64,000 bases of DNA, from positions 920,203 through 984,202 of the forward strand of contig JBJBEO010000001.1 in the NCBI GenBank assembly GCA_047284725.1, read 5' to 3'. Position 1 is the first letter of the stretch, and each line of letters starts with the position of its first letter. The translations under genes were made by a program, and so were the position numbers. This document shows positions 1-25,561 of this stretch, one piece after another. The notes beneath the pieces were generated by a model. It made no database searches, was not told the DNA's origin, and saw only the letters and a program-made list of their open reading frames with translations. The DNA is from Synechococcus sp. (lineage in GTDB: Bacteria > Cyanobacteriota > Cyanobacteriia > PCC-6307 > Cyanobiaceae).

Positions 1-2
1 CC

Positions 3-9000: not shown

Positions 9001-12000
9001 ATTTTGCTGTCGGCTGTGGCATTCAGGTTCAGATCGCCGCTCGCTGTGAGCGAGGAGTTATTGATGTAGGCCTGCACCTCGGAGAGCGCTCCCTCTGCAT
9101 TGGTGCTGTTGCCGCTGCCATCCCAACCAATACGGTTGGTGACCACCGAGGCGCCGATCGAGGCCCCCACTCCGGCACTTCCTCCGGCGCCGAGCGCCAC
9201 AGAGACAGCGCCGACCTGGGCTGTGATGATTGACTGGTTGGAGGCGCTGATGTCGACACCGACGGCATTCCTGACGGTGCTGTCGTCGATGAACGCATTG
9301 GTGCGGGTGAGAATCGCATTGGTGGAAACGGCACCAGCGCCGCTGATGGCGACCCCGGCACTTCCACCGAATGAGGCACTGATCGATGCCGCTGCTGCGC
9401 GGGCGGTGATGCTGCCATCGGCCAACTCCCAGAGCCTGGTGTCTGAGTAATCCTCTGCGCCAAGATCTCGCAAGTATCCATTGAACAGAACCCATTCATT
9501 AGGATTTGCTGCAAAATCAATATTTCCGAGATAGATTTCCGCTTCATCGCCAATGTATCGGTAAATATTGCCATTAACCAGCTCAACCGTATTACCCTCG
9601 CGCAGGAGGAGAGCATCATCATTGCGCTCATCGGCCGTCGTTCCGTCAGCTCCGTCGCCGTCGAAGTCGGCATTAAGAACTCCATTATCATTCAAGCTGA
9701 AGTCAGCCACATAGCCCCGGAACCTGTACAGGCGATCACCTTGGCCCCCGTTGCCATGAGTCGCATCAGTTCTGACGGTGTCACCCACATTCAAGGTCTG
9801 CAGTCCGGCACCGCTTGTATACGTTGGAGCATCCGCACTGGACGGCATCGCATGGGCATCGATTCGGATGTCTCCCGCAGAGTTAACATTCGAGACATCT
9901 TTGATAAAGGCGTTGACGTCGTTGTTGACTTCGTTGATGGCCAACGTCAGGCCGATTGAAACGCCAACACCTGTCGAGCCGCCCAGCGATGCACCAACAC
10001 TTGCTGCAAGGGCGTCGGCGTTGATCGACGACATGTCCCGGGCCAGCAGGGAGACCACACCGCCATCGGTCATGATGCCGTTGACAGGTGATCCAGCAGG
10101 CCCATTGCCCTCGATGTAGGCCTGCACAGATGTGCCAATACGATTTTCGCTGTAGACGCCAGCCGCGCTAAGACTCACTCCCGTACTGGCCGCCAGGGCA
10201 ACCGCTGCTGAAATCGCCTGGACAGTCGCATCAATCGCTGCCAGTGAGATGGCTGAAAGGTCAATGCTGCCTTCAGCGTGGATGTCGGAGTCTTTGATGT
10301 AAGCGTGTGTCGTCAGAGGGGAGAGGGTTCGCGAGCCACCAAACGAGCTTGTATCGAGATCAAGCGACCCATCGAAACCGATGAAGTTTTCAGCCACCGA
10401 GATCCCAATTGATCCGGCTACTGAAGAACTGATCCCTCCTGCAGCAGCGATGGACTTGCTGTCGATCAATGCACCAATGATGGAGCGATTGTCGGCCTCA
10501 ATGATGACATTACCCTCATCGCTGACGAGAGTCCATTCAGTATCATCAAAGTTCTGAGTCGAGAGATCGACGATCCCTGGTGTTCCTCCGGTGAACTTGT
10601 AGACACCACCAGGGACGCCTCCCCCTTGGTGGTCGGAGTCAACCCGAACCCGATCGTTCAACGCGAGATCGACTTCACCATGGTTGCTGGTGTATTCATA
10701 ACCGACTGGTGATGAGGCTCTGGCATGAACATTGCTTCCAGTGATATGAGCCTCGGAACCGCCTTGGATGCTATTGATGGCTACAGCACCACCACCGCTG
10801 AAGCCCCTACCACCACTCACACCAACGACTACGGCAATGGATGAAGCTGAAGCGGTCGATTGAATCTCAGCCTCAGTATCAGCAGTGACGATGACACTTC
10901 CGGAAAGTGCGTCCACCGTGTTGACATTTCTGATGTAGGAGTCAAGGTCGTTGTGAATTTCGTTGCGAGCAATGGCAAGGCCCAATGACACGCCATTGGA
11001 TCCCGACAAGCTCGCTGATAACGCCATCGAGGAAACTGCCACCTCAGCATCGATGCCCGAATGATCATCAGCCTGCACGGCGATGTCACCGCCATGGGCA
11101 ATAAAGCTCATGGAGCTGGATGTCGTTTTATCCAAATACGCCTTAACGTCGGTGCTGACTTTGTTCAGCGCAAGCACCGCTCCCACTGAGATCGATGTGC
11201 TGCTGGCCAGCGTTGCTGAGGTGGATACCGCAGCACTTTGGATCATGGCGTCGATGCTCGCGTCAGACGTCGCCGTTACGTTGATCTTTCCGTCTGCATC
11301 GACGGTGGAATCGCGGATAAAGGCCCTGGTCTGCGCCGCGTCCTGATCAGCAAGTGGAGTGTCGAGGAAGATATCGGCGATGTTGAACAGGAAATTCTGG
11401 GGCTCAATACCAACGGTGTTGAAAGCCGCCGTCACACCTACCGAAACACTCGTACCACCGCCGAAGACGGTGGTCTCACTCGTGGTATTGGCATTGATGA
11501 TCGAGCTGTTGCTGGCAGAAACAGTGACATCGCCACCTCCAGTGGTGGTGATGTCACTGTCTGTGACGGAGGCATTGGCGTCGGAGAGGACAACGTTGGT
11601 CACAATCACCGCATTGACGGCCACTGTCGTGCCGCCAACGAATGCGCTACCCCCATCAGACTTGGCAACGCTGTCGTTCATCGCGTCAATTGTGGCGCGC
11701 TCCTTCGCTATGACCTGTACCGCTCCAAAGACATCCACATCAGCGTTCTGGATGTAGCTATCAACCGATCCGCGAACATCGTTCAAAACGATCAGGCCAC
11801 CGATCGCTACGGCATCTGAAGAACTCACATTGAGATTGAGCTGAGCAGGCACCCAACTCAGAAGGTCTGTGGCATCGACCTTTTCCCAATCTGATGAGCC
11901 CTCGAAATCAAAGTCGCTTAAGTTGAATGTCGCTGCCGCAGTTCCTTGGTAGGCATAGACATCTCCTGGGGTATGTCCTGAAATATCGAAGTCCGAGGCC

Positions 12001-15000
12001 AAATAGACAAGCTCGCCCTCTCTGACGGTCTGAACTCCCGACTTAGTGGTGTATTGATACTCATTGGTTGCAGCTCCGATGTAATCAGCCGCGATGCTCG
12101 CTCCACCGTCATTGGTGGTTGTTGACAGTGCCTTCAGCAGGTTATCGGCACTGATCGAAGCATTATCATCAGCGATGATCGTCAGAGCATTGCCGGCATC
12201 GATATCGTTGCTGGATCCTCCGATAGAGGCAACCGTCGAGCTATTGACCTTGTTGGTGGCAATGATTGCTCCGACGGCCATGCCGCTTGCTCCAAACAGA
12301 GCGGAAGCCGCTGAACTTGTTTCATTGCTGATGTTTGAAGTGATCGATGCCGTGGTCTGGGCAGAGACATCGATGCTGCCTTCTGCATTGACTGTTGCAT
12401 TCTTGATCAAGGCCTCTACTGACGCCGGTTTCTCATTGACAAGCGCCGGAGTTCCAATGATGGCATCGATGGTATTAAACAGAATGTTGGAGGGTCTCCA
12501 GCCGATCGAGTTGAACGCCAGGGTCACACCCACGGCGGTGTCGCCGCTGGTCGTCATGCTGAGGTTGGTGGCGTCAAGATCCGAAGAATTGACAGCTGAC
12601 ACTCCTACGTTGCCGAGGCCTCCACCGGTTGTATTGGCATCGATGGTGCTGTCCTCGAGAACCGCCTTTGCTGAGCTCAGAATTAGGTTCGTGGCAATCG
12701 TGCCATTGACCGCCAGGGAGGTGCCGGTGCCGTAGGCGCTGCCGCCGGAGGAACTGGCGGTGCTGTCAACGGTGGCTTGAATCGTCGCGGATTCATCGGC
12801 CGTGACATTCACATCCCCGTTCACCGTGTTAACCAATGAGCCCTTGAGGGACGCCTCGACATCGGCGCGCACATCGTTCAGGACGACGATGCCGCCGATG
12901 GCGATCGAATCCGACCCGCTGACGTTGAGACCCTGGGGGATCAGCTGGCTCTCGGGCACTTCCTTCCAGTACCCCAGGTCGCTGTAATTCAACCGACTCA
13001 GATCGCTCGAGCCGGCTAAGCCGCTGGCCGGGTCGATCCCGTCGGCCCCCATGAATTCATAGACAGAGCCGGCACTGCCGCTGATCTCGACCCAGTCGAG
13101 GCTGCTGCCGTAGTCCAGGGTCACCAGATCGACAACCGTCGGGGGATCCTGCTCCTCGCCCACGTACTGATACACGCTGCCGACGGTGCCGTCGCCTGTG
13201 GCCTCCTCGGTCACCTCCACGACCATTCCGTCGATCAGGCCCTGCTCATTCGTGCTCAGACCCAGCTGCGGTGTCGTGCTGTGGGTCGGCACCGCGTAAT
13301 CATCGGCCAGCCGCACCCGATCACCGAACTCCAGGGTCACGCTGGTGGCGTCGGAGGTGTGGTCCACCTCGAGGAGATCATTGATGCTTTCCTGCAGCAC
13401 CGACGCGCCACCGTCATTGGTGGTGGTCGATGAGGAGACGATCTTGGTGTTGGAGTAAACGCCGGCGCTGTCGCTGGCGGTGATTGCGACGCTGCCACCA
13501 GCCTCCACCGCGGTGCTGACGGCATCTCCGCCATCGCTGTCCTCCACGTAGGCCCGCGTGGCGGTGCTGACCTTGTTGCTCGCCAGAATCGCACTGGTGC
13601 TCATGCCCATCGCACCGAACAGGGCCGAGGCTTCTGAGATCGCGGCGTTGGAGACGGTCGCGTTCAGCCCGGCATCGTTCACCGCGCTCACCGTCAGGTC
13701 GCCGCTGAGCTTGAGGGTGGAATCCTCGATCGCGGCGATCACCGTGGCCGGATCCTCACGGCCGATCAAGCTGTCGCCCACCAACGCATCAATGGCGTTG
13801 AAGAGCACGTTCTGCGACTGCCAGCCGATCGTGTTGAAGGCCAGCGTGACCCCGACCGCCGTATCCCCCGAGCTGGTCGAGCCCAAGATGGTGGCATCGA
13901 TGGCGGAGGTGTTCTCGGCCGTCACCGCAACAGCGCCGCCGATGGCGGTTGTGCCGTCACCGATCTCGCTGTCGGTGATGGTGGCCTCGGTCGTGCTCTG
14001 CACCAGGTTGGTGGCGATCGTGCCGTTGACCGCCAGGGAGGTGCCGGTGCCGTAGGCACTGCCACCGGAGGAGGACACCTCACTGAGGATCGTGGCGGCG
14101 ATCTGCGCATTGGAGAGCGCCGCGACTGTCAGATCACCGCCCGCCGCAACATCGGCGTTATCGATGAAGACGTCGACACGGCTTCTGACATCGTTGCGCA
14201 CGACCACACCGCCGATGGCCACCGAATCGGAGCCCGTCACATTGCCGACATTGGGGATGTAGTCGGCGGTGCTTTCGGTCACCTTGACCCAATCGCCGGA
14301 GGTCTCGTAATCAATCGTGCCCAGATCAATCTGGGCGGCTTGTGCCCCCTCGTAGCGGTAGATCCCGCCCTCATCTCCACCGTTGCTGTAACCGGGACCC
14401 ACCCGCACCCTGGTGGATTCGGCCGCACCCTGCCGGCTCCAGAACGTTGTGTCGTTGTAGTTCTGGCTGGCCAGATCCAGCGTGTCGTCAACAAGGTCAC
14501 CGTCACCGAGGTATTCATAGACCGCACCTTCCTCGCCGCTGATCTCCTGCCACAGTGTTGCGTCGGTGAAATCCTGCGCGGTGAGGTCGAGGGTTCCGCC
14601 CTGTCCGACGTATCGGTAATAGCCGCTGCCGACGCGCACGATGGTGGTGTCCTTCACCACGGTGGCACTCTCGGCACCGCTGTCGGTGGTGGTGTAGTCG
14701 GGGGTGATGGCCTCGAAATAGCCGTAGTCGACCTTGACCCGATCGCCGAGTGCGACCACGGTGCTGCCCTCACCGGTGCTGTGGTCGTAGCTGGGCAGCC
14801 CGACGAGCACGGACCCCGATTCGGTGGTGAAGTCGTACTGCCTGTCCAGGTTGGCCAGCGCGTCTTGCAGCAGGCTCACGCCGCCGTCATTGGTGGTCAC
14901 CGACACCGAGGTGATGTCGCTGCTGGAGAGGACGCCGGCCTCGTCGCTGGCCGTGACCGTCACATGGCCGAGCGCACTGACATCGCCCTGGGCGCCGCTG

Positions 15001-18000
15001 AAGGCGATGAAGGCATCCGCCGCGCTGCTCACCAGGTTGCTGGCCAGCACCCCGGAGGTGCTCATCCCCGTCGCCCCGAAGAGCGCCGACGCTGCACTGT
15101 CGGCCTGATTGGTGATGGTTGCGTCCAGCTGCGCCGCATTGCGTGCCGTCACGCTGATGTCAGCGGCGGCGGTGAGCTGGCTGTCGCGGCTGTAGGCCGT
15201 GACCTGCGCCGGTGCCTCCTGGCCGAGCACCGAATCACCGAGCAGGGCATCGAGCGTGTTGAACAGCAGGTTCTGGGGCTGCCAGCCGATCGTGTTGAAG
15301 GCGAGCGTGACCCCGACCGCCGTATCCCCCGAGGTGGTGGCACTCAGCACCGACGCGTCGATGGCGGAGGTGTTCTCGGCCTCCACCGCGATGGTGCCCG
15401 CCTCGGTGGTGCCGCCCGCTGCGTCCTGGGCTTCCACCGTGCTGTCGGTGATCCGCGCGCTCGCCGCACTCAACACCGTGTTGGTGGCGATGAGGCCGTT
15501 GATCGCCAGGGAGGTGCCGGTGCCGTAGGCGCTGCCGCCGGAGGAGGAGGCGGCGCTCTCTGCCGTGGCGGTGATGGCGGCGATCTCGCTGGCCTCGACC
15601 GTGACATGGCCGTCCCTGGCCAGGACGGTGGCGTCGTTGATGTAGGCATCGACGGTGCCGCGCACGTCGTTGCGCACCACCAGGCCGCCGATGCCGATCG
15701 AATCCGAACCGCTGACGTTCAGGCCACTGGGGATGATGTTGGTCTGATCGAGCGGCTTCCAGAGCCCATAGTCGCTGTAATCCTGGGCGCCGAGATCACG
15801 GGCCTGGCTCTCACCCATGTACTGGAAGATCTGACCTGCCGGATCGAAGGAGCTATCAACAACTTCGTTGAAGCTGTAGTCATCATCTACACGGACCCGA
15901 TCACCGAAGTTCAGCTCAGGCGTGCCTGACTGGCTGGTGAACTGATAGTCATCGAGCAGTGTCTGTGCCAGGCCATTGAGAATGCCGGCACCACCGTCAT
16001 TGCTCGTTGACGACGCCGACACCACCTGGCTTGTGGCCTCGATCGTCGCGCTGTCGGCCGCCGAGACCGCAATGCCGCCGGCCGCAACGTCCGTCGAGAG
16101 ATCCAGCCAGTTGGTCGTGTCGGTTGTGTAGTTCTGGCTGCCGGTGCTCAGATCCACCGACGACTGAAGATTCTCGCCCTGATATTGGTAGTAGTCACCG
16201 TTGAACCCGACAATGTCGTTCTGGTTCAGCTGGGTCGGTGTATCGCTGTCTGTATAAAGCGTGCTCCCCGGGAGCAGTGTGGGGCTGCTAGTGCCAATGT
16301 CGAGCCAATCATTGTTACTGGCATAGTTCTGTGCTGTGTTGCTCAGATCCAGCGACGACTCGATTGGCGCTGTGCCCTGATATTCATAGACATCGCCGGA
16401 ATCGAGGCGTACCCGATCCCCGATGTTCAAGGTCACCGGACCATCGCTCGGGGCGTAATCCCAGGCATGCCCGAGATGGGCATCCGTCGTGGTGCTGACC
16501 ATGTTGCCGGCCAGCACACCGGCGAAGCTCATGCCGGTGGCGCCAAAGAGGGCGGAAGCCGCCGAGGTGGCCTCGTTGCCGACCGTGGCGGTGATCGCCG
16601 CGCCGGTCTCGGCATTCACGGTGACGCTGCCCACCGCATCGACCGAGGTGTTGTCGATCAGCGCCAGCGTCTCGAAGGGATCCTCGCTGCCGATGCTGCT
16701 GCCGAGCAGCGTGTCGATCGCATTGAAGAGAACGTTCTGGGACTGCCAGCCGATCGTGTTGAAGGCCAGCGTCACCCCCACCGCGGTGTCGCCGCTGGAG
16801 GTGGCGCTCAGGTTGCTCGCCTCGATCGCAGCGGTGTTGAGCGCCGTGACCTCAAGATCGCCGCCCAGGGGGGTGAGGGTGCTGTCCTGGACAAGCGCAC
16901 GCGCTGATCCCAGCACGGTGTTGGTGGCGATCACGCCATTGACCGCCAGGGAGGTGCCGCTGCCGTAGGCACTGCCGCCGGAGGACGATACCGTCGCATC
17001 GGCCGTCGCCTGGATCGTGGCGTTCTCCGACGCGCTCACCACCACGTCATCACCGGCCTGCAGGGTGATGGAGTTCAGGGACGCCTCGACATCGGCGCGC
17101 ACATCGTTCAGGACGACGATGCCGCCGATGGCGATCGAATCCGACCCGCTGACGTTGAGACCCTGGGGGATCAGCTGGCTCTCGGGCACTTCCTTCCAGT
17201 ACCCCAGGTCGCTGTAATTCAACCGACTCAGATCGCTCGAGCCGGCTAAGCCGCTGGCCGGGTCGATCCCGTCGGCCCCCATGAATTCATAGACAGAGCC
17301 GGCACTGCCGCTGATCTCGACCCAGTCGAGGCTGCTGCCGTAGTCCAGGGTCACCAGATCGACAACCGTCGGGGGATCCTGCTCCTCGCCCACGTACTGA
17401 TACACGCTGCCGACGGTGCCGTCGCCTGTGGCCTCCTCGGTCACCTCCACGACCATTCCGTCGATCAGGCCCTGCTCATTCGTGCTCAGACCCAGCTGCG
17501 GTGTCGTGCTGTGGGTCGGCACCGCGTAATCATCGGCCAGCCGCACCCGATCACCGAACTCCAGGGTCACGCTGGTGGCGTCGGAGGTGTGGTCCACCTC
17601 GAGGAGATCATTGATGCTTTCCTGCAGCACCGACGCGCCACCGTCATTGGTGGTGGTCGATGAGGAGACGATCTTGGTGTTGGAGTAAACGCCGGCGCTG
17701 TCGCTGGCGGTGATTGCGACGCTGCCACCAGCCTCCACCGCGGTGCTGACGGCATCTCCGCCATCGCTGTCCTCCACGTAGGCCCGCGTGGCGGTGCTGA
17801 CCTTGTTGCTCGCCAGAATCGCACTGGTGCTCATGCCCATCGCACCGAACAGGGCCGAGGCTTCTGAGATCGCGGCGTTGGAGACGGTCGCGTTCAGCCC
17901 GGCATCGTTCACCGCGCTCACCGTCAGGTCGCCGCTGAGCTTGAGGGTGGAATCCTCGATCGCGGCGATCACCGTGGCCGGATCCTCACGGCCGATCAAG

Positions 18001-21000
18001 CTGTCGCCCACCAACGCATCAATGGCGTTGAAGAGCACGTTCTGCGACTGCCAGCCGATCGTGTTGAAGGCCAGCGTGACCCCGACCGCCGTATCCCCCG
18101 AGCTGGTCGAGCCCAAGATGGTGGCATCGATGGCGGAGGTGTTCTCGGCCGTCACCGCAACAGCGCCGCCGATGGCGGTTGTGCCGTCACCGATCTCGCT
18201 GTCGGTGATGGTGGCCTCGGTCGTGCTCTGCACCAGGTTGGTGGCGATCGTGCCGTTGACCGCCAGGGAGGTGCCGGTGCCGTAGGCACTGCCACCGGAG
18301 GAGGACACCTCACTGAGGATCGTGGCGGCGATCTGCGCATTGGAGAGCGCCGCGACTGTCAGATCACCGCCCGCCGCAACATCGGCGTTATCGATGAAGA
18401 CGTCGACACGGCTTCTGACATCGTTGCGCACGACCACACCGCCGATGGCCACCGAATCGGAGCCCGTCACATTGCCGACATTGGGGATGTAGTCGGCGGT
18501 GCTTTCGGTCACCTTGACCCAATCGCCGGAGGTCTCGTAATCAATCGTGCCCAGATCAATCTGGGCGGCTTGTGCCCCCTCGTAGCGGTAGATCCCGCCC
18601 TCATCTCCACCGTTGCTGTAACCGGGACCCACCCGCACCCTGGTGGATTCGGCCGCACCCTGCCGGCTCCAGAACGTTGTGTCGTTGTAGTTCTGGCTGG
18701 CCAGATCCAGCGTGTCGTCAACAAGGTCACCGTCACCGAGGTATTCATAGACCGCACCTTCCTCGCCGCTGATCTCCTGCCACAGTGTTGCGTCGGTGAA
18801 ATCCTGCGCGGTGAGGTCGAGGGTTCCGCCCTGTCCGACGTATCGGTAATAGCCGCTGCCGACGCGCACGATGGTGGTGTCCTTCACCACGGTGGCACTC
18901 TCGGCACCGCTGTCGGTGGTGGTGTAGTCGGGGGTGATGGCCTCGAAATAGCCGTAGTCGACCTTGACCCGATCGCCGAGTGCGACCACGGTGCTGCCCT
19001 CACCGGTGCTGTGGTCGTAGCTGGGCAGCCCGACGAGCACGGACCCCGATTCGGTGGTGAAGTCGTACTGCCTGTCCAGGTTGGCCAGCGCGTCTTGCAG
19101 CAGGCTCACGCCGCCGTCATTGGTGGTCACCGACACCGAGGTGATGTCGCTGCTGGAGAGGACGCCGGCCTCGTCGCTGGCCGTGACCGTCACATGGCCG
19201 AGCGCACTGACATCGCCCTGGGCGCCGCTGAAGGCGATGAAGGCATCCGCCGCGCTGCTCACCAGGTTGCTGGCCAGCACCCCGGAGGTGCTCATCCCCG
19301 TCGCCCCGAAGAGCGCCGACGCTGCACTGTCGGCCTGATTGGTGATGGTTGCGTCCAGCTGCGCCGCATTGCGTGCCGTCACGCTGATGTCAGCGGCGGC
19401 GGTGAGCTGGCTGTCGCGGCTGTAGGCCGTGACCTGCGCCGGTGCCTCCTGGCCGAGCACCGAATCACCGAGCAGGGCATCGAGCGTGTTGAACAGCAGG
19501 TTCTGGGGCTGCCAGCCGATCGTGTTGAAGGCGAGCGTGACCCCGACCGCCGTATCCCCCGAGGTGGTGGCACTCAGCACCGACGCGTCGATGGCGGAGG
19601 TGTTCTCGGCCTCCACCGCGATGGTGCCCGCCTCGGTGGTGCCGCCCGCTGCGTCCTGGGCTTCCACCGTGCTGTCGGTGATCCGCGCGCTCGCCGCACT
19701 CAACACCGTGTTGGTGGCGATGAGGCCGTTGATCGCCAGGGAGGTGCCGGTGCCGTAGGCGCTGCCGCCGGAGGAGGAGGCGGCGCTCTCTGCCGTGGCG
19801 GTGATGGCGGCGATCTCGCTGGCCTCGACCGTGACATGGCCGTCCCTGGCCAGGACGGTGGCGTCGTTGATGTAGGCATCGACGGTGCCGCGCACGTCGT
19901 TGCGCACCACCAGGCCGCCGATGCCGATCGAATCCGAACCGCTGACGTTCAGGCCACTGGGGATGATGTTGGTCTGATCGAGCGGCTTCCAGAGCCCATA
20001 GTCGCTGTAATCCTGGGCGCCGAGATCACGGGCCTGGCTCTCACCCATGTACTGGAAGATCTGACCTGCCGGATCGAAGGAGCTATCAACAACTTCGTTG
20101 AAGCTGTAGTCATCATCTACACGGACCCGATCACCGAAGTTCAGCTCAGGCGTGCCTGACTGGCTGGTGAACTGATAGTCATCGAGCAGTGTCTGTGCCA
20201 GGCCATTGAGAATGCCGGCACCACCGTCATTGCTCGTTGACGACGCCGACACCACCTGGCTTGTGGCCTCGATCGTCGCGCTGTCGGCCGCCGAGACCGC
20301 AATGCCGCCGGCCGCAACGTCCGTCGAGAGATCCAGCCAGTTGGTCGTGTCGGTTGTGTAGTTCTGGCTGCCGGTGCTCAGATCCACCGACGACTGAAGA
20401 TTCTCGCCCTGATATTGGTAGTAGTCACCGTTGAACCCGACAATGTCGTTCTGGTTCAGCTGGGTCGGTGTATCGCTGTCTGTATAAAGCGTGCTCCCCG
20501 GGAGCAGTGTGGGGCTGCTAGTGCCAATGTCGAGCCAATCATTGTTACTGGCATAGTTCTGTGCTGTGTTGCTCAGATCCAGCGACGACTCGATTGGCGC
20601 TGTGCCCTGATATTCATAGACATCGCCGGAATCGAGGCGTACCCGATCCCCGATGTTCAAGGTCACCGGACCATCGCTCGGGGCGTAATCCCAGGCATGC
20701 CCGAGATGGGCATCCGTCGTGGTGCTGACCATGTTGCCGGCCAGCACACCGGCGAAGCTCATGCCGGTGGCGCCAAAGAGGGCGGAAGCCGCCGAGGTGG
20801 CCTCGTTGCCGACCGTGGCGGTGATCGCCGCGCCGGTCTCGGCATTCACGGTGACGCTGCCCACCGCATCGACCGAGGTGTTGTCGATCAGCGCCAGCGT
20901 CTCGAAGGGATCCTCGCTGCCGATGCTGCTGCCGAGCAGCGTGTCGATCGCATTGAAGAGAACGTTCTGGGACTGCCAGCCGATCGTGTTGAAGGCCAGC

Positions 21001-21404
21001 GTCACCCCCACCGCGGTGTCGCCGCTGGAGGTGGCGCTCAGGTTGCTCGCCTCGATCGCAGCGGTGTTGAGCGCCGTGACCTCAAGATCGCCGCCCAGGG
21101 GGGTGAGGGTGCTGTCCTGGACAAGCGCACGCGCTGATCCCAGCACGGTGTTGGTGGCGATCACGCCATTGACCGCCAGGGAGGTGCCGCTGCCGTAGGC
21201 ACTGCCGCCGGAGGACGATACCGTCGCATCGGCCGTCGCCTGGATCGTGGCGTTCTCCGACGCGCTCACCACCACGTCATCACCGGCCTGCAGGGTGATG
21301 GAGTTCAGGGACGCCTCGACATCGGCGCGCACATCGTTCAGGACGACGATGCCGCCGATGGCGATCGAATCCGACCCGCTGACGTTGAGACCCTGGGGGA
21401 TCAG
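3..21404 (-). CDS. Downstream open frame of the giant surface protein (at least 7134 codons, partial)
   Basis: Spot translations give recurring motifs AVGVTLAFNTIGWQ, SSGGSAYGTGTSLAVNG, SGSDSIAIGG..NDVR and TTNDGG. Same frame as the N-terminal part. Confidence 0.85.
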   Translation of the reverse strand, partial: MIPQGLNVSGSDSIAIGGIVVLNDVRADVEASLNSITLQAGDDVVVSASENATIQATADATVSSSGGSAYGSGTSLAVNGVIATNTVLGSARALVQDSTLTPLGGDLEVTALNTAAIEASNLSATSSGDTAVGVTLAFNTIGWQSQNVLFNAIDTLLGSSIGSEDPFETLALIDNTSVDAVGSVTVNAETGAAITATVGNEATSAASALFGATGMSFAGVLAGNMVSTTTDAHLGHAWDYAPSDGPVTLNIGDRVRLDSGDVYEYQGTAPIESSLDLSNTAQNYASNNDWLDIGTSSPTLLPGSTLYTDSDTPTQLNQNDIVGFNGDYYQYQGENLQSSVDLSTGSQNYTTDTTNWLDLSTDVAAGGIAVSAADSATIEATSQVVSASSTSNDGGAGILNGLAQTLLDDYQFTSQSGTPELNFGDRVRVDDDYSFNEVVDSSFDPAGQIFQYMGESQARDLGAQDYSDYGLWKPLDQTNIIPSGLNVSGSDSIGIGGLVVRNDVRGTVDAYINDATVLARDGHVTVEASEIAAITATAESAASSSGGSAYGTGTSLAINGLIATNTVLSAASARITDSTVEAQDAAGGTTEAGTIAVEAENTSAIDASVLSATTSGDTAVGVTLAFNTIGWQPQNLLFNTLDALLGDSVLGQEAPAQVTAYSRDSQLTAAADISVTARNAAQLDATITNQADSAASALFGATGMSTSGVLASNLVSSAADAFIAFSGAQGDVSALGHVTVTASDEAGVLSSSDITSVSVTTNDGGVSLLQDALANLDRQYDFTTESGSVLVGLPSYDHSTGEGSTVVALGDRVKVDYGYFEAITPDYTTTDSGAESATVVKDTTIVRVGSGYYRYVGQGGTLDLTAQDFTDATLWQEISGEEGAVYEYLGDGDLVDDTLDLASQNYNDTTFWSRQGAAESTRVRVGPGYSNGGDEGGIYRYEGAQAAQIDLGTIDYETSGDWVKVTESTADYIPNVGNVTGSDSVAIGGVVVRNDVRSRVDVFIDNADVAAGGDLTVAALSNAQIAATILSEVSSSGGSAYGTGTSLAVNGTIATNLVQSTTEATITDSEIGDGTTAIGGAVAVTAENTSAIDATILGSTSSGDTAVGVTLAFNTIGWQSQNVLFNAIDALVGDSLIGREDPATVIAAIEDSTLKLSGDLTVSAVNDAGLNATVSNAAISEASALFGAMGMSTSAILASNKVSTATRAYVEDSDGGDAVSTAVEAGGSVAITASDSAGVYSNTKIVSSSTTTNDGGASVLQESINDLLEVDHTSDATSVTLEFGDRVRLADDYAVPTHSTTPQLGLSTNEQGLIDGMVVEVTEEATGDGTVGSVYQYVGEEQDPPTVVDLVTLDYGSSLDWVEISGSAGSVYEFMGADGIDPASGLAGSSDLSRLNYSDLGYWKEVPESQLIPQGLNVSGSDSIAIGGIVVLNDVRADVEASLNSITLQAGDDVVVSASENATIQATADATVSSSGGSAYGSGTSLAVNGVIATNTVLGSARALVQDSTLTPLGGDLEVTALNTAAIEASNLSATSSGDTAVGVTLAFNTIGWQSQNVLFNAIDTLLGSSIGSEDPFETLALIDNTSVDAVGSVTVNAETGAAITATVGNEATSAASALFGATGMSFAGVLAGNMVSTTTDAHLGHAWDYAPSDGPVTLNIGDRVRLDSGDVYEYQGTAPIESSLDLSNTAQNYASNNDWLDIGTSSPTLLPGSTLYTDSDTPTQLNQNDIVGFNGDYYQYQGENLQSSVDLSTGSQNYTTDTTNWLDLSTDVAAGGIAVSAADSATIEATSQVVSASSTSNDGGAGILNGLAQTLLDDYQFTSQSGTPELNFGDRVRVDDDYSFNEVVDSSFDPAGQIFQYMGESQARDLGAQDYSDYGLWKPLDQTNIIPSGLNVSGSDSIGIGGLVVRNDVRGTVDAYINDATVLARDGHVTVEASEIAAITATAESAASSSGGSAYGTGTSLAINGLIATNTVLSAASARITDSTVEAQDAAGGTTEAGTIAVEAENTSAIDASVLSATTSGDTAVGVTLAFNTIGWQPQNLLFNTLDALLGDSVLGQEAPAQVTAYSRDSQLTAAADISVTARNAAQLDATITNQADSAASALFGATGMSTSGVLASNLVSSAADAFIAFSGAQGDVSALGHVTVTASDEAGVLSSSDITSVSVTTNDGGVSLLQDALANLDRQYDFTTESGSVLVGLPSYDHSTGEGSTVVALGDRVKVDYGYFEAITPDYTTTDSGAESATVVKDTTIVRVGSGYYRYVGQGGTLDLTAQDFTDATLWQEISGEEGAVYEYLGDGDLVDDTLDLASQNYNDTTFWSRQGAAESTRVRVGPGYSNGGDEGGIYRYEGAQAAQIDLGTIDYETSGDWVKVTESTADYIPNVGNVTGSDSVAIGGVVVRNDVRSRVDVFIDNADVAAGGDLTVAALSNAQIAATILSEVSSSGGSAYGTGTSLAVNGTIATNLVQSTTEATITDSEIGDGTTAIGGAVAVTAENTSAIDATILGSTSSGDTAVGVTLAFNTIGWQSQNVLFNAIDALVGDSLIGREDPATVIAAIEDSTLKLSGDLTVSAVNDAGLNATVSNAAISEASALFGAMGMSTSAILASNKVSTATRAYVEDSDGGDAVSTAVEAGGSVAITASDSAGVYSNTKIVSSSTTTNDGGASVLQESINDLLEVDHTSDATSVTLEFGDRVRLADDYAVPTHSTTPQLGLSTNEQGLIDGMVVEVTEEATGDGTVGSVYQYVGEEQDPPTVVDLVTLDYGSSLDWVEISGSAGSVYEFMGADGIDPASGLAGSSDLSRLNYSDLGYWKEVPESQLIPQGLNVSGSDSIAIGGIVVLNDVRADVEASLKGSLVNTVNGDVNVTADESATIQATVDSTASSSGGSAYGTGTSLAVNGTIATNLILSSAKAVLEDSTIDANTTGGGLGNVGVSAVNSSDLDATNLSMTTSGDTAVGVTLAFNSIGWRPSNILFNTIDAIIGTPALVNEKPASVEALIKNATVNAEGSIDVSAQTTASITSNISNETSSAASALFGASGMAVGAIIATNKVNSSTVASIGGSSNDIDAGNALTIIADDNASISADNLLKALSTTTNDGGASIAADYIGAATNEYQYTTKSGVQTVREGELVYLASDFDISGHTPGDVYAYQGTAAATFNLSDFDFEGSSDWEKVDATDLLSWVPAQLNLNVSSSDAVAIGGLIVLNDVRGSVDSYIQNADVDVFGAVQVIAKERATIDAMNDSVAKSDGGSAFVGGTTVAVNAVIVTNVVLSDANASVTDSDITTTGGGDVTVSASNSSIINANTTSETTVFGGGTSVSVGVTAAFNTVGIEPQNFLFNIADIFLDTPLADQDAAQTRAFIRDSTVDADGKINVTATSDASIDAMIQSAAVSTSATLASSTSISVGAVLALNKVSTDVKAYLDKTTSSSMSFIAHGGDIAVQADDHSGIDAEVAVSSMALSASLSGSNGVSLGLAIARNEIHNDLDSYIRNVNTVDALSGSVIVTADTEAEIQSTASASSIAVVVGVSGGRGFSGGGAVAINSIQGGSEAHITGSNVHARASSPVGYEYTSNHGEVDLALNDRVRVDSDHQGGGVPGGVYKFTGGTPGIVDLSTQNFDDTEWTLVSDEGNVIIEADNRSIIGALIDSKSIAAAGGISSSVAGSIGISVAENFIGFDGSLDLDTSSFGGSRTLSPLTTHAYIKDSDIHAEGSIDLSAISLAAIDATVQAISAAVALAASTGVSLSAAGVYSENRIGTSVQAYIEGNGPAGSPVNGIMTDGGVVSLLARDMSSINADALAASVGASLGGSTGVGVSIGLTLAINEVNNDVNAFIKDVSNVNSAGDIRIDAHAMPSSADAPTYTSGAGLQTLNVGDTVRTDATHGNGGQGDRLYRFRGYVADFSLNDNGVLNADFDGDGADGTTADERNDDALLLREGNTVELVNGNIYRYIGDEAEIYLGNIDFAANPNEWVLFNGYLRDLGAEDYSDTRLWELADGSITARAAAASISASFGGSAGVAISGAGAVSTNAILTRTNAFIDDSTVRNAVGVDISASNQSIITAQVGAVSVALGAGGSAGVGASIGASVVTNRIGWDGSGNSTNAEGALSEVQAYINNSSLTASGDLNLNATADSKIDALSLAGSAALAAGGTAGIGLSGAGISTQNKIATTINASINGVDDDSSGADPVDTITAATIGLSATDTSTITSDAAAVSIAAGFGGTGAGALSVGITLAENQISNAVETSISNISSVTSETGDISLAVAEDATIQARTAAVSVALAGGGLAGISLSGAGTEARNVILTTTRARVDDSLLISAGDVSLHAASTASISALVASASAAVGVGTAGIGASVGLAIAKNLIGYNLDGSDGLSEVLTSITDSSIDAVGELSLSADSSASINATVLAGSVAVAVGGGSLGAAGAGASATNRIRTLITSTIDGDSPNSSVIHGIEAGTVSLRATDNSTINADVGAASLAGAVGLGAGASISIGVATAYNEIANEVESLVLNVDGDPADISDVGLTTTAAASTTGDITIDASSTSQITARSAAASAAVGAGLFAGIAISGAGADSTNVILSLTHAGVENSDLLSVRDVAITADDTSTINALVVGASAAVGAGGVGGGVSIGSAVAKNFIGYTAGSVPQPAGVQTWVINSSIDAARDLILDADAVETIIADVAAFSAALAGGAVAGAASGAGADVLNLMAINVKSVVNGTRGGHIDIGRAMSVTANDLSTITASTEAASIAGSVGLIGASVAIGVSLAGNSIANDVEASVRDAEIDGAPDGLTIAADETATITATAQAAALSASVSIGASLSGGGASTTGTVLTQTRAYVLNGVLSLSGDLDIDAHATTTAISEVQATSAAFGLIAAAASGSLGVATVTPTVEAYISGADVDADDITVEAKATPRAETTARGFSVSSGVSMGVSSATSKVAATVDAYVGGSGKTITADSLSVQAKTLLPGSDDTANAFAVGSAGGLLLGFDATLTLAQTTSTLNSYVVASTTLNVDDVTVNANNKTRQVADSSSDAFGLIAAGVTQSEAIATTTTLAYLGSNVTVNGGALSVTATGEDDNFADTTAGSGGVVSGASARPRTENNAVVTAEIGANSDVDLSSTEGSQVVVKADHKAIFNSRIVANAAGFLSGAGGDSDHDIDSDVTAKIGHGADLVAFALEMEANNIIDKPALSGGSSNLDGSAKALISGAGADSDTDLDLVTIVKIEDDADIDIVGLPTNDQVLTLKAKNKITAYDKITFEASGLGAGAKTSSTIRTLNDIARIDIGDADIYSSGMFLATARGEGDISIQNSAEANGGVGVVIGESLVDINPENEIIIRSGANILADGDIRFAVAEDGDFSEDWYDIESRVDSYSSAAIPVDDLDAEAFLFQENEINIASGAHLQSAREVRLHAEEVGLSNVAATNAGHSWAANLFSAPSKFADVGNSLAEAHAVVINNGTVETGIKRKQTLILEDWDRTTGLVTVISRDSDDDMVDEGDISFTQNQEKLENSLLRELDFAQSQLSTYPENEELVTFYSSEVSRITAELEALGLLETVPDGPNAGAQVANEQFVMTVTINPVHAEAGMIDIRGDQLYGSGEWIAPGDADVTIQNHTPAFLRILGITIPEVNGGLFFNGNEVTSNAKITSDNQTLVDEDNAFNQNEGNWNAVTADFSQIPDSSEDAPTITVQNLLDVRDPAAAGGTFTQVVNMTLSASEATSVGWGTDDPDDPTDPGTSFFHQRIEQSSTSGIGEGLALEVFVDSSGDIDFSVAGLGTGYVAGDSVTFSDPFGVGDNVTITVTPVTAEVNVTYPWPDLTISGDGIIAPTSTVVLETNSAGDGDVIIEAEVIAGNLRVVAGGTLFIPDVSQLEAQGKPYTAWADATTGPIGDGSSSAAWTAEASTSNQNTVFATEPAGSTAAQRELVAELTAELEAAKSSLVDAAAGSSLEATLESDIARIEAELVAAEAPGGGYLGLYADKIVIDAEYLNINGIIQSGVEDYVLNIDSFVQSEINTLLERGKTGRFFLPDSSLRSESFGLIYDASTNTIEVLDLRVSGGSIDLTGHILNTANGKIRALGGYGYIEVNNSTNYNLKIHELDASQRGAGTIIIRDKARGTSEDPLVTIYQQTAEGFTVTESNNSGSTVYAGDSLNNLDNLDTSAVESEDLSNYQPDEGWRFGWTVGLTQKIIRTATQVDSSWAFIPLGTDFDGPWDRTEIENQPTLEDEAGYYYKDIDNTSQYDHVEEVVTLGIQYPAGPDGVYGTDDDGVLSSKTNTSWYGKKTITVKYKQTETQGVTDTHSVEADRPIDIAFLGYDEGRIIVNSTGTGAVEIIGPIANPTGLTRVVSQQDIETVGLSAYVGGRRVELEALSGIGTDDDNPLVTRVTDSPTQEYEGRLFFDDLAHLGNDLISRPSGDWTLDGFQAGNTITIVGSNKNDGTYLIDNVTQQVLTLNAAASLTDETADVTAVGTGTSAVVNPSSLKATTQNGDIYIREQIGELAIEEITAENGGDVELFAPGAIRVGETDLRTPFGGSHITGGSITLTSATGGVGNSAATPLEINSAISPTFLKDKVSIQAAGDVYVEEVDGDLRLEEIITGGDVWVKVDNGNLLDVNDDQTRDERTYNELKGGVWSDLSLTEELGALDKIENAKIEVESQRTQEYRSYWQFRNMQSDPGTYDADFQVALTAEEFAFYTDPTGLNYDELQVQALEQSRTDQYHALHTLLENLGVVSDVDTFDEAFSYELSAAEEQDVEGNFKVWTEAELLFSISAGLLKGVSDTTVSEEEANITGNDVTLIVGGGIGETSGFIDIDVAKLRTAPKSGLMSFSGSDITFSGGWSGFSVNDQVFVEGHDNGSYIITAINTNVLTVGFIDDDDNVVVPASFNTASNVDVDVTITLTDDERVTLAAAERNDVTYLKSAPITSEVAFGNSDGKGTLTRISGDLFAAFTAGDFIQVVGNAVNANEDFETYRIESVVGNVITLDQALSAELATVQLLNVVPDPNAPVVSATATAVVVSFADEISGQDTITRNSGSWMADGFQAGMVISISGNSANVTGTNEFFLIENVTASKLTLNSGGTLDDETGVTVDIAGGFTQQIDISRINLVEDIDIEASGVVNVDADEQVFLGSEGTIYVDSIKS
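12847..13445. repeat. 599-bp direct repeat, copy R3 (CAG allele)
   Basis: Matches 17077-17675 and 21307-21905; G at 12947. Confidence 0.9.
17077..17675. repeat. 599-bp direct repeat, copy R2 (CAG allele)
   Basis: Matches the other two copies; G at 17177. Confidence 0.9.
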
Positions 21405-21905
21405 CTAGCTCTCGGGCACTTCCTTCCAGTACCCCAGGTCGCTGTAATTCAACCGACTCAGATCGCTCGAGCCGGCTAAGCCGCTGGCCGGGTCGATCCC
21501 GTCGGCCCCCATGAATTCATAGACAGAGCCGGCACTGCCGCTGATCTCGACCCAGTCGAGGCTGCTGCCGTAGTCCAGGGTCACCAGATCGACAACCGTC
21601 GGGGGATCCTGCTCCTCGCCCACGTACTGATACACGCTGCCGACGGTGCCGTCGCCTGTGGCCTCCTCGGTCACCTCCACGACCATTCCGTCGATCAGGC
21701 CCTGCTCATTCGTGCTCAGACCCAGCTGCGGTGTCGTGCTGTGGGTCGGCACCGCGTAATCATCGGCCAGCCGCACCCGATCACCGAACTCCAGGGTCAC
21801 GCTGGTGGCGTCGGAGGTGTGGTCCACCTCGAGGAGATCATTGATGCTTTCCTGCAGCACCGACGCGCCACCGTCATTGGTGGTGGTCGATGAGGAGACG
21901 ATCTT
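21307..21905. repeat. 599-bp direct repeat, copy R1 (TAG allele)
   Basis: tcagctAgct at 21401-21410 versus tcagctGgct in R2 and R3. Confidence 0.9.
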
Positions 21906-24551: not shown

Positions 24552-24805
24552 GGCTGAACGAATCGCCTAATCCTTTACTCATAAAGGGGCCAGCTTTGGC
24601 ACGCAATGTCGCATCCGCTTTTAAGTGGGCATGCCTAAAATCAGTGTTTAATCGGATTCTCACCAGTCTTTAAGATTCAAGTTTTTTAGTTGAGCTATAA
24701 GCATTTTGAAGTCTTAATTTGTCGCTTCAAATATTAAAAAACCGTGAGCAAATGTTCAATAATTTCTCGCTTTTGTTATGACTCAAGGGCCTTATTTCTT
24801 TGGTG
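24552..24805. promoter_or_regulatory. AT-rich divergent intergenic region, probable promoters for the giant gene and the SapC-family gene
   Basis: Head-to-head genes; visibly AT-rich at 24640-24800. Individual promoter elements not assigned. Confidence 0.5.
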
Positions 24806-25561
24806 ATGGCTCCACAGCTGCTGTTTTACAACGATGTTGTTCCTCTGAATAAGGAGCGTCATCAGGGCTGGTCTCTTAAGCAGGTTGATGATTATTCGTT
24901 TGCAGACAAGGCCAACTCTGTCCCTCTGATGTCTGTTGAGTTCTTCCAGGCCTCCGCTGATTATCCAATTGTCTTTGCTGGCGACGAAGAAGTCGTTTCT
25001 CCCGTGCTGTTGCTCGGATTGCAGCAGGCTCAGAATTTATTCCTGCAAAGCAATGGGTCATGGAGTGGTGGTTACATACCCGCCTTTATCAGAAGGTATC
25101 CATTCGTATTTACTCGCTCTGATGACGGTGAGCAATACTATCTATGCATCGATGAGTCGCATCCAGGTTTCAATCAATACGGTGAAGGTGAGGCTTTGTT
25201 GAACGAAGATGGTAATCCTACGGACTTCACCGACAACATCCTCAAGTTTCTGAGTAGCTACCAATATGAGTTCCAGAGGACGCAGGCATTTTGCAAGAAG
25301 CTGAAGGAGCTCAATCTCCTGGAGGCAAAGCAAGCTGATATTTCCCTTCCGGATGGTACCAAGAAGTCCTTGAAAGGTTTTTATACTGTTGAGCGACAAC
25401 GCCTGGCATCACTGTCGTCTGAGTCCATCGTGGAGCTTGTTCGGTCGGGTTACTATGAGATGATTTGTAGCCATCTCGCTTCATTGCGTAACTTCAAGCT
25501 TCTCAGTGATCTCAGCAATGAGCGAGTTAGCGAAAGTGGGGAATTGCATGCTGTGGTGTAG
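24806..25561 (+). CDS. sapC: SapC-family protein (Campylobacter fetus S-layer locus SapC type)
   Basis: Motifs VPLNKERH, YSFA..NSVPL..EF..A..YPIVF, LLGL..NLFL..G.W.GGYIPAFIRRYPF are characteristic of the SapC family. ATG at 24806 (track start TTG 24800). Confidence 0.85.
   Translation: MAPQLLFYNDVVPLNKERHQGWSLKQVDDYSFADKANSVPLMSVEFFQASADYPIVFAGDEEVVSPVLLLGLQQAQNLFLQSNGSWSGGYIPAFIRRYPFVFTRSDDGEQYYLCIDESHPGFNQYGEGEALLNEDGNPTDFTDNILKFLSSYQYEFQRTQAFCKKLKELNLLEAKQADISLPDGTKKSLKGFYTVERQRLASLSSESIVELVRSGYYEMICSHLASLRNFKLLSDLSNERVSESGELHAVV

What the first reader, a model, noticed from the sequence alone, without database searches (positions are those of the whole stretch)
12847..21905. Candidate recombination-reversible ON/OFF and length switch in a giant adhesin gene
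Seen: on the coding strand the order is R1(TAG)-U-R2(CAG)-U-R3(CAG), with R = 599 bp and U = 3631 bp, all in frame. The only difference I found is the nonsense base at 21407 in R1. Inference: a crossover in the ~498 identical bp 5' of the stop (21408-21905) between R1 and R2 or R3 would delete the stop with one or two 1410-aa units and restore a shorter complete protein. Gene conversion from R2 or R3 would restore it at full length. The gene thus carries its own repair templates, coupling expression state to filament length with no invertase or slippage tract. A plain loss-of-function mutation fixed in culture explains the data equally well.
Basis: partly seen in the sequence, partly recalled or inferred. 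Interest (0 to 1): 0.85.

Follow-up and report, generated by a model that had tools for sequence, protein, structure and literature searches.

The report
Broken giant filament gene, one-way repairable
A 36-kb gene for a predicted giant secreted filament protein in a marine cyanobacterium carries a perfect 4.2-kb internal duplication and one early stop codon; it is most likely a recently broken, length-variable surface gene that recombination could repair once, not a built-in on/off switch.

Summary
12847-21905 is R-U-R-U-R (599/3631 bp, period 4230, in frame), identical except at 21407, which puts TAG at codon 1049 of an 11,915-codon gene. The gene encodes an LktA-repeat, RTX-motif giant in a ~44-kb island; it was not found in 45 congeners. 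The repeat block has its own codon signature, with sharp steps at both edges. Near-identical repeats three modules apart recur in 3 of 53 homologue frames, and 2 more are looped three-module contigs, so length variation of the Periscope kind is likely real. The stop is not shared: 39 of 39 homologous positions are sense codons. About 25-30% of possible nonsense changes fall in the repeat anyway. Recombination can remove the stop, but a repaired allele keeps no stop-bearing template, so the change runs one way. Best reading: a recent null mutation that happens to be revertible (0.62). An assembly artefact remains possible (0.25). An evolved switch is unlikely (0.07). No reads tested the stop itself.

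The parts
21405..24551 (-). 5' part of the giant gene: 1048-aa product ending at the premature TAG; lacks the C-terminal RTX region
   Evidence: NF012206 LktA_tand_53 57.8 bits vs cut-off 50; singleton cluster
21405..21407 (-). Premature TAG, codon 1049, inside R1; the only difference among the repeat copies
   Evidence: homologous position is sense in 39 of 39 motif hits
21906..24551 (-). Unique 5' flank X (codons 1-882), including the first beta-solenoid module; GC at four-fold sites 0.58 over codons 583-882
21307..21905 (-). R1 (codons 883-1082): side domain budding from the solenoid plus conserved flanking strands; predicted weak likeness to CBM5/12 chitin-binding domains
   Evidence: GC at four-fold sites 0.91
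17676..21306 (-). U1: three beta-solenoid modules (A, B, C) with two further side domains
   Evidence: GC at four-fold sites 0.875
17077..17675 (-). R2 (CAG copy), followed by U2
13446..17076 (-). U2, identical to U1
12847..13445 (-). R3 (CAG copy), followed by unique flank Y
1..12846 (-). Unique 3' part of the gene; runs on to genome 909,006 with RTX nonapeptides and a C-terminal HExxH matrixin-like motif
   Evidence: (PF00353 112.9 bits vs 23; PF00413 26.8 vs 24)
24800..25561 (+). sapC, divergent neighbour at the island's edge; sapC also lies upstream of 3 of 19 homologue loci scanned
   Evidence: PF07277 E 2e-75; L008, L025, L035

Best explanation
The gene is an island-borne giant whose 9-kb identical repeat block and single TAG are in the sequence; the TAG is most likely a very recent, ordinary loss-of-function mutation in a gene whose length likely varies by recombination, and recombination would be able to remove it but not to put it back. 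Shown: the repeat, the stop, the open 10,866 codons behind it, the LktA-repeat and RTX matches, the ~44-kb insertion, and the codon-signature steps at both block edges. Inferred, step 1: the ancestral layout was X-R-ABC-R-D, with the two R copies made identical by conversion or brought in as one block from another allele. Inferred, step 2: unequal crossover between the R copies duplicated ABC, adding 1410 aa and three side domains to a predicted beta-solenoid filament. Inferred, step 3: after that, a C-to-T change in R1 switched the gene off, probably favoured in culture because an ~11,900-aa secreted protein is costly. The 1048-aa stub lacks the C-terminal export region and would not be secreted. 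Predicted, step 4: revertants with a shorter or full-length gene arise at a low, steady frequency and are held down by selection; they can only go OFF again by new mutation.
For: The TAG is the only difference in 9,059 bp of repeat and the only break in 11,915 codons, so it postdates the duplication or last homogenisation. It is unshared: sense codon in 39 of 39 motif hits in 22 of 72 loci; singleton protein cluster. Its location is unremarkable: 625 of 2554 one-step nonsense changes, and 162 of 545 transitions, lie in the duplicated block. Other members are broken in unrelated ways: L017, in a closed Anabaenopsis chromosome, is split by a short insert with 13-bp inverted ends and a 9-bp target repeat. 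Repeat architecture recurs: exact in-frame repeats of 755 bp (L033), 610 bp (L016) and 114 bp within 310 bp at 95% (L051), each three modules apart; L007 and L012 are three-module contigs whose ends overlap. In L033 and L051 the repeat covers the same side domain as R. Wild relatives: an X2 contig bridges the U-to-R joint (75 letters on the short side); X1, 2-4% different, shows R-to-U bridged and both X and U leading into R with 30-letter overlaps, and a net 204-bp in-frame loss inside R. Four-fold GC steps from 0.58 to 0.91 at R1's first codon and from about 0.9 to 0.66 after R3 (GC3 Fisher p 1e-8 and 5e-5). R2 is a CAG copy followed by U, which simple double-counting of one U behind a TAG copy would not give (inference). 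Benchmark: 438-bp direct repeats delete at a median 6.5e-4 in Deinococcus (PMC4627823, passages).
Against: No raw reads or sister allele test the TAG. The one X1 contig covering 21407 ends 17 letters past it, and its third difference is not located. Most homologue frames (48 of 53) show no such repeat, and P0007 has its repeat two modules apart, so three-module spacing is not a rule. The genome has other perfect arrays (489 bp x14, 657 bp x16) and a tandem extra rRNA operon, and manual rebuilding of giant-gene repeats from coverage is documented for this genus. Selection in culture and secretion are inferred, not shown. The codon signature could reflect GC-biased conversion rather than import.
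Confidence: 0.62

Rival explanations
1. Assembly or finishing artefact: the TAG is a consensus error, or a real variant placed in the wrong copy, or U was written twice from a coverage estimate or from a culture polymorphic at R1.
For: The base sits in a three-copy repeat 498 bp from unique sequence. The genome holds three other near-perfect arrays, one with an N, and a tandem rRNA operon. PMC4559175 (passages) says the swmB repeats of a marine Synechococcus were rebuilt by hand from copy-number estimates. PMC7522525 (passages) used that pipeline for 31 genomes. bioRxiv 2025.09.30.679566 (passages) finds unique breaks in repetitive RTX adhesins often cannot be told from errors. How this genome was sequenced is not known to me.
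Against: Copy-pasting gives identical copies, yet R1 differs, and the 284-bp array also keeps copy-level differences. Both TAG-then-U and CAG-then-U exist in the assembly. The U-to-R and R-to-U joints exist in independent contigs. The tandem rRNA copies are separated by 367 bp found once in the genome. Completeness is 99.98%.
Confidence: 0.25
2. Evolved contingency switch: the stop in R1 is a selected OFF state, and the repeats are kept as repair templates that couple switching ON to filament length.
For: The geometry allows in-frame repair. recA is present. R-U-R layouts recur across phyla. A precedent exists for recombinational reversion of a nonsense allele, gonococcal pilE (PMC2187963, abstract).
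Against: There is no route back to OFF: an ON allele carries no TAG copy, unlike pilS donors, which persist. The stop is not conserved and not seen elsewhere. None of the 5 homologues with repeats or loops has an in-frame stop in the repeat. One in four random nonsense changes would look like this.
Confidence: 0.07
3. The stop is functional without recombination: leaky readthrough or re-initiation yields the 10,800-aa downstream part, which keeps its RTX export region, splitting an N-terminal anchor from a released filament.
For: 10,866 codons remain open with the C-terminal RTX region intact. In-frame GTG/ATG codons follow the stop from codon 1074 on.
Against: No CUA-anticodon tRNA among 50 ARAGORN calls. 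None of the 15 in-frame start codons in codons 1050-1300 has a Shine-Dalgarno-like word, while the real ATG has AAAGGA upstream. The identical sequence in R2 and R3 shows no tuning for initiation. An intact tail is also what a recent mutation leaves.
Confidence: 0.06

Closest known systems
Periscope Proteins (SasG, Rib, Sgo_0707, Esp, CdrA; PMC8201768, passages)
   Same: Long, near-identical in-frame DNA repeats in a surface-protein gene, proposed to drive gain and loss of repeats by intragenic recombination.
   Different: The unit here is 1410 aa of three solenoid modules with side domains, in only two copies, bounded by a 599-bp third partial copy. Strain-to-strain variation of this very gene is not shown, and one copy carries a stop.
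Cag_665 of Chlorobium chlorochromatii (bioRxiv 10.64898/2026.03.19.712371, passages)
   Same: Giant protein with LktA-like tandem repeats near its N-terminus, modelled as two layered beta-sheets, beside sapC and a type I export gene. Our module model has ~20-residue strands, and sapC is adjacent.
   Different: Not aligned to it here. Our protein ends in RTX nonapeptides and a matrixin-like motif, has no adjacent tolC, and is interrupted. The passages read mention no internal perfect duplication.
Neisseria gonorrhoeae pilE/pilS phase variation (PMC2187963, abstract)
   Same: A nonsense allele reverts at high frequency by intragenomic recombination with homologous copies.
   Different: pilS donors are separate, silent and persist, so switching runs both ways. 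Here donors are inside the reading frame, and the OFF base is lost on repair.
Haemophilus influenzae type b cap duplication with truncated bexA (bioRxiv 543454, passages and a cited title)
   Same: A tandem duplication with a lesion in one copy, where recombination between copies changes the expression state in one direction.
   Different: There the unit is an operon flanked by IS1016 and recombination turns capsule off. Here the unit is intragenic and recombination would turn the gene on.
RTX adhesins and marine Synechococcus giants such as SwmB
   Same: Very large, repetitive, strain-specific, island-borne proteins with RTX motifs; often broken or mis-assembled.
   Different: The repeats here are beta-solenoid LktA-type modules, not Ig-like extenders. 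SwmB was not compared by sequence.

Membership tests
Periscope Proteins | Long, highly identical in-frame tandem DNA repeats | tested here: met
   4230-bp unit, one mismatch in 9,059 bp
Periscope Proteins | Repeat number varies between strains carrying the gene | tested here: inconclusive
   No sister allele: 0 of 45 congeners match. Family-level repeats in 3 of 53 frames plus 2 looped contigs; an in-frame 204-bp loss in X1
Periscope Proteins | Repeats form an elongated rod of folded domains | tested here: inconclusive
   One module modelled at pLDDT 86 as a wide beta-solenoid; best matches Z 6-7 to solenoids; tandem array not modelled
Periscope Proteins | Cell-surface anchor and distal ligand-binding domain | not testable with these tools
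   No retention or anchor family hit; localisation needs experiment
pilE/pilS-type gene-conversion phase variation | Separate silent donor copies that persist after switching and hold both states | tested here: not met
   No other copy of R or U elsewhere in the genome in the self-comparison; donors lie in the reading frame
pilE/pilS-type gene-conversion phase variation | Templated switching in both directions | tested here: not met
   Any TAG-bearing copy makes the allele OFF, so ON alleles hold no OFF template (follows)
pilE/pilS-type gene-conversion phase variation | High measured switching rate, RecA-dependent | not testable with these tools
   recA present; no rate measured
Slippage or invertase phase variation | Simple-sequence tract, or invertible segment with a recombinase | tested here: not met
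   No homopolymer of 8 or more and no 2-9-bp tract; only weak inverted repeats near R; no recombinase family among the island ORFs scanned
LktA-repeat filamentous proteins (NCBIfam NF012206) | Score over the curated cut-off with many repeats | tested here: met
   57.8, 174.3 and 276.5 bits vs cut-off 50 in three parts
RTX / type I-secreted proteins | C-terminal Ca-binding nonapeptide repeats | tested here: met
   PF00353 112.9 bits vs 23, 7 stretches
RTX / type I-secreted proteins | Cognate type I exporter | tested here: inconclusive
   Two HlyD over cut-off elsewhere in the genome, beside the other two giants; sapC adjacent; outer-membrane efflux or HlyD genes upstream of 6 of 19 homologue loci
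RTX pore-forming toxins (NF033943) | Whole-protein score over cut-off | tested here: not met
   72.6 bits vs cut-off 1000, nonapeptide region only

The most novel reading that the evidence does not exclude
LktA-repeat giants across phyla keep a three-module cassette between homogenised direct repeats as a dial for filament length and for the number of sugar-binding side domains. In this lineage the same repeats serve as a selected ratchet: nonsense alleles inside the repeat give a cheap OFF state from which cells return ON, often with a shorter filament, as bet-hedging against grazers or phage.
Probability: 0.08. Interest if true: 0.7.

Novelty: new member of a known kind. Interest (0 to 1): 0.3.

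Why it matters
As it most likely stands, this is a clean natural example of a revertible null, and it extends Periscope-type length variation to a widespread, little-described family of giant LktA-repeat proteins. Recombination there would add or remove about 1,400 residues and three side domains at a time. It also warns that giant-gene 'pseudogenes' in cultured picocyanobacteria may be recent or may be assembly products. If the stop proved to be a selected, recurrent OFF state, it would be a contingency mechanism that needs no slippage tract, invertase or silent cassette, and it could be tested with one deep long-read run.

Tried and rejected
Reads: no listed holder had half of the sampled words, and no RNA holder was listed. 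All 7 runs laid were contigs; none bridges 21407, and none shows the R-to-Y joint. U was covered more often than X in X1, X2 and X4, but contig depth is no copy number, so I did not use it. X2 and X4 pieces with no differences could come from this strain or a very close one. Sister alleles: DNA search of 60 relatives gave only a 32-bp and a 60-bp hit; protein search of 45 congeners gave none; two protein-collection searches gave nothing above 51% identity; the metagenome scan gave 7 distant loci. In-frame stops in homologues: the 37 split rows are, by my reading, shadow frames or gene boundaries. Breaks in L027, L048 and L064 sit at N gaps. Frameshifts in L016 (just past its second repeat copy) and L045 may be long-read errors. 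Amber suppressor: none. Promoter and terminator scan near the stop: no excess over shuffles. Protein self-BLAST printed no rows, so modules were defined by motifs. Foldseek found no match at E <= 0.001 for the module or the side domain; VIA Z-scores are all under 8. One search covered an irrelevant family. Literature: searches listed no paper describing an intragenic repeat-repaired stop as a switch in a giant secreted protein; the library lacks most subscription papers. (ploidy) was seen as a listing only and not used. No supplements were read.

Full report
Observation. 12847-21905 is R1-U1-R2-U2-R3 on the minus strand, with R = 599 bp, U = 3631 bp and period 4230 bp (1410 codons). The only mismatch is at 21407, which makes codon 1049 TAG in R1 where R2 and R3 have CAG. 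With the genome laid, the frame runs from ATG 24551 to genome position 909,006: 1048 codons, the stop, then 10,866 open codons.

What the gene is. The host is a closed 2.58-Mb, 59% GC genome. I call it a marine Synechococcus on the strength of earlier scan notes and a recalled tmRNA tag; I did not test this further. The protein scores over the cut-off for NCBIfam NF012206 (LktA_tand_53 filament repeats) in three parts. Near its C-terminus it has RTX nonapeptides and a matrixin-like HExxH motif. It is far below the RTX-toxin cut-off (72.6 vs 1000 bits). Its 5' third is built of roughly 430-550-aa modules. One module models at pLDDT 86 as a solenoid of ~20-residue strands, with only generic solenoid matches (Z up to 7.3, rmsd 8.0 A over 103 residues; Z 6.5, rmsd 2.4 A over 109). 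R encodes a side domain and the conserved strands around it. Folded alone (pLDDT 87), its core weakly resembles CBM5/12 chitin-binding domains (best Z 4.6, rmsd 2.2 A, 48 residues); this is a hint, not a function. The gene sits in a 43.8-kb insertion: the two flanking host genes are 5-17 bp apart in 3 of 5 congeners and 2.5 and 5.2 kb apart in the other 2. The island also holds sapC, DUF3467, a methyltransferase, a radical SAM gene and an orphan copy of the giant's C-terminal peptidase-like end. The module was not found in 45 congeners, while 65 genome loci from many phyla hold relatives. The closest described protein is Cag_665, with LktA-like repeats, layered beta-sheets, sapC and tolC (passages). 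Type I export is inferred from the RTX motifs, from HlyD genes elsewhere in the genome, and from efflux or HlyD genes upstream of 6 of 19 homologue loci scanned (69 of the 84 ORFs listed, covering 19 of 24 loci).

How the repeat arose. A single tandem duplication gives two periods, but the identical span is two periods plus 599 bp. An R-U-R allele with identical R copies therefore probably came first (inference). Three results agree. First, homologues: of 53 frames with three or more module motifs, L033 (755 bp exact), L016 (610 bp exact) and L051 (114 bp exact in 310 bp at 95%) have in-frame direct repeats three modules apart, and L007 and L012 are three-module contigs with overlapping ends. 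In L033 and L051 the repeat covers the same side domain as R. The other 48 show no such repeat; short-read assemblies break at identical repeats, so this may undercount. P0007 has a 78-aa exact repeat two modules apart. Second, wild sequence: an X2 contig bridges the U-to-R joint with 75 letters on the short side. In X1, 2-4% different from the window, one contig bridges R-to-U, and both an X-side and a U-side contig end in the same 30 letters of R, one short of the tool's bridging rule but the expected overlap at a branch. X1 also has R with 218 bases replaced by 14, an in-frame loss of a nested sub-domain. Third, codon signature: GC at four-fold sites is 0.58 before R1, 0.91 in R, 0.875 in U and 0.66 then 0.58 after R3, with the step at codon 883. 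The far 3' half of the gene is 0.76. The block thus has a different history from its flanks, by import from another allele or by biased conversion; I cannot tell which.

The stop. It is the only break in the gene and the only difference among copies, so it is younger than the duplication or the last homogenisation. At the homologous position, 39 of 39 motif hits in 22 of 72 loci are sense codons (Q in 22); the other 50 loci had no motif hit. The 1048-aa stub is a cluster of one on one contig. Of 2554 single-base routes to a stop in the gene, 625 (24.5%) lie in the duplicated block; of 545 transitions, 162 (29.7%). A repairable position therefore needs no special cause. A homologue in a closed Anabaenopsis chromosome is broken differently, by a short insert with inverted ends and a target repeat. 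There is no amber suppressor and no Shine-Dalgarno-like word before the 15 in-frame starts that follow.

Is it a switch? Repair is possible: all products of recombination between the copies keep the frame, recA is present, and 438-bp direct repeats delete at 6.5e-4 in Deinococcus, with little effect of spacing (passages; another organism, so only a guide). But the change runs one way. A TAG in any copy stops translation, so no ON allele can store the OFF base, and unequal crossover only moves TAG among OFF chromosomes. Gonococcal pilE reverts from nonsense alleles at high frequency (abstract), but its pilS donors stay behind and supply both states. The nearer logic is the Hib cap duplication, a one-way change by recombination between copies (passages). 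No slippage tract or recombinase supplies a way back. What remains is Periscope-type length variation (passages) plus a null allele that is revertible by accident.

Could it be an artefact? It could. The genome has perfect arrays in its two other giants and a tandem rRNA operon. Manual rebuilding of giant-gene repeats from coverage is documented in this genus (passages), and unique breaks in repetitive RTX genes are often unverifiable (passages). Against it: the copies are not all identical; a CAG copy followed by U would not arise from counting one U twice behind a TAG copy; and the joints exist in independent data. No data reached the base itself.

Verdict. Observation confirmed, interpretation partly supported. 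Recent null in a length-variable giant gene 0.62; artefact 0.25; evolved switch 0.07; readthrough or re-initiation 0.06. New member of a known kind; interest 0.3. The most worthwhile lead is the recurring three-module cassette in this family, not the stop. Earlier scan notes concerned only the neighbouring enzyme cassette; a word search found none on this idea.

Noticed in passing
L033 7667/10934; L016 8817/13215; L051 2747/6386; L007 and L012 contig ends; L075 1088/8510: In-frame near-identical direct repeats three modules apart (six in L075) recur in LktA-repeat giants of several phyla; a candidate family-wide length-variation cassette.
   Followed up: partly
L017 about 9260-9470: Homologue in a closed Anabaenopsis chromosome is split by a ~210-bp insert with 13-bp inverted ends and a 9-bp target repeat, likely a MITE.
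   Followed up: partly
genome 816141-825716 and 1084694-1099039 (outside the window): Two more giant genes with perfect arrays (489 bp x14 with one N; 657 bp x16), each near an HlyD gene over the cut-off.
   Followed up: partly
genome 268467-281327: Two rRNA operons in tandem with 367 unique bases between them, plus a third elsewhere; real duplication or finishing product.
   Followed up: partly
genome 1874146-1875548: A 284-bp unit in 4.9 near-identical tandem copies, between tRNA-Trp and tRNA-Asp.
   Followed up: no
L004 2652-3298 (-): Orphan paralogue of the giant's C-terminal HExxH peptidase-like end at the far edge of the island, apparently in two overlapping frames.
   Followed up: partly
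L004 3596-8781: Methyltransferase, radical SAM, two unknown proteins, kinase and DUF3467 next to the giant's 3' end; already noted by earlier scan findings. Radical SAM or methyltransferase genes also lie upstream of L008 and L010.
   Followed up: partly
window 21946-22053 (run X1): Of 10 listed differences just 5' of R1, 6 change the amino acid, a high share for so close a relative; one contig only.
   Followed up: no
window about 12350-12750 (-): Short high-GC patches in flank Y match cassette modules (68 bp at 93%), suggesting small conversion tracts beyond R3.
   Followed up: no
L046 3707-5881; L054 968-3172: A SecA-like gene lies just upstream of two distant homologues of the giant.
   Followed up: no
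genome 752.7-756.4 kb (+): Another pair of long same-frame ORFs (1050 and 857 codons) split by one TGA; may be two genes or a second broken large protein.
   Followed up: no
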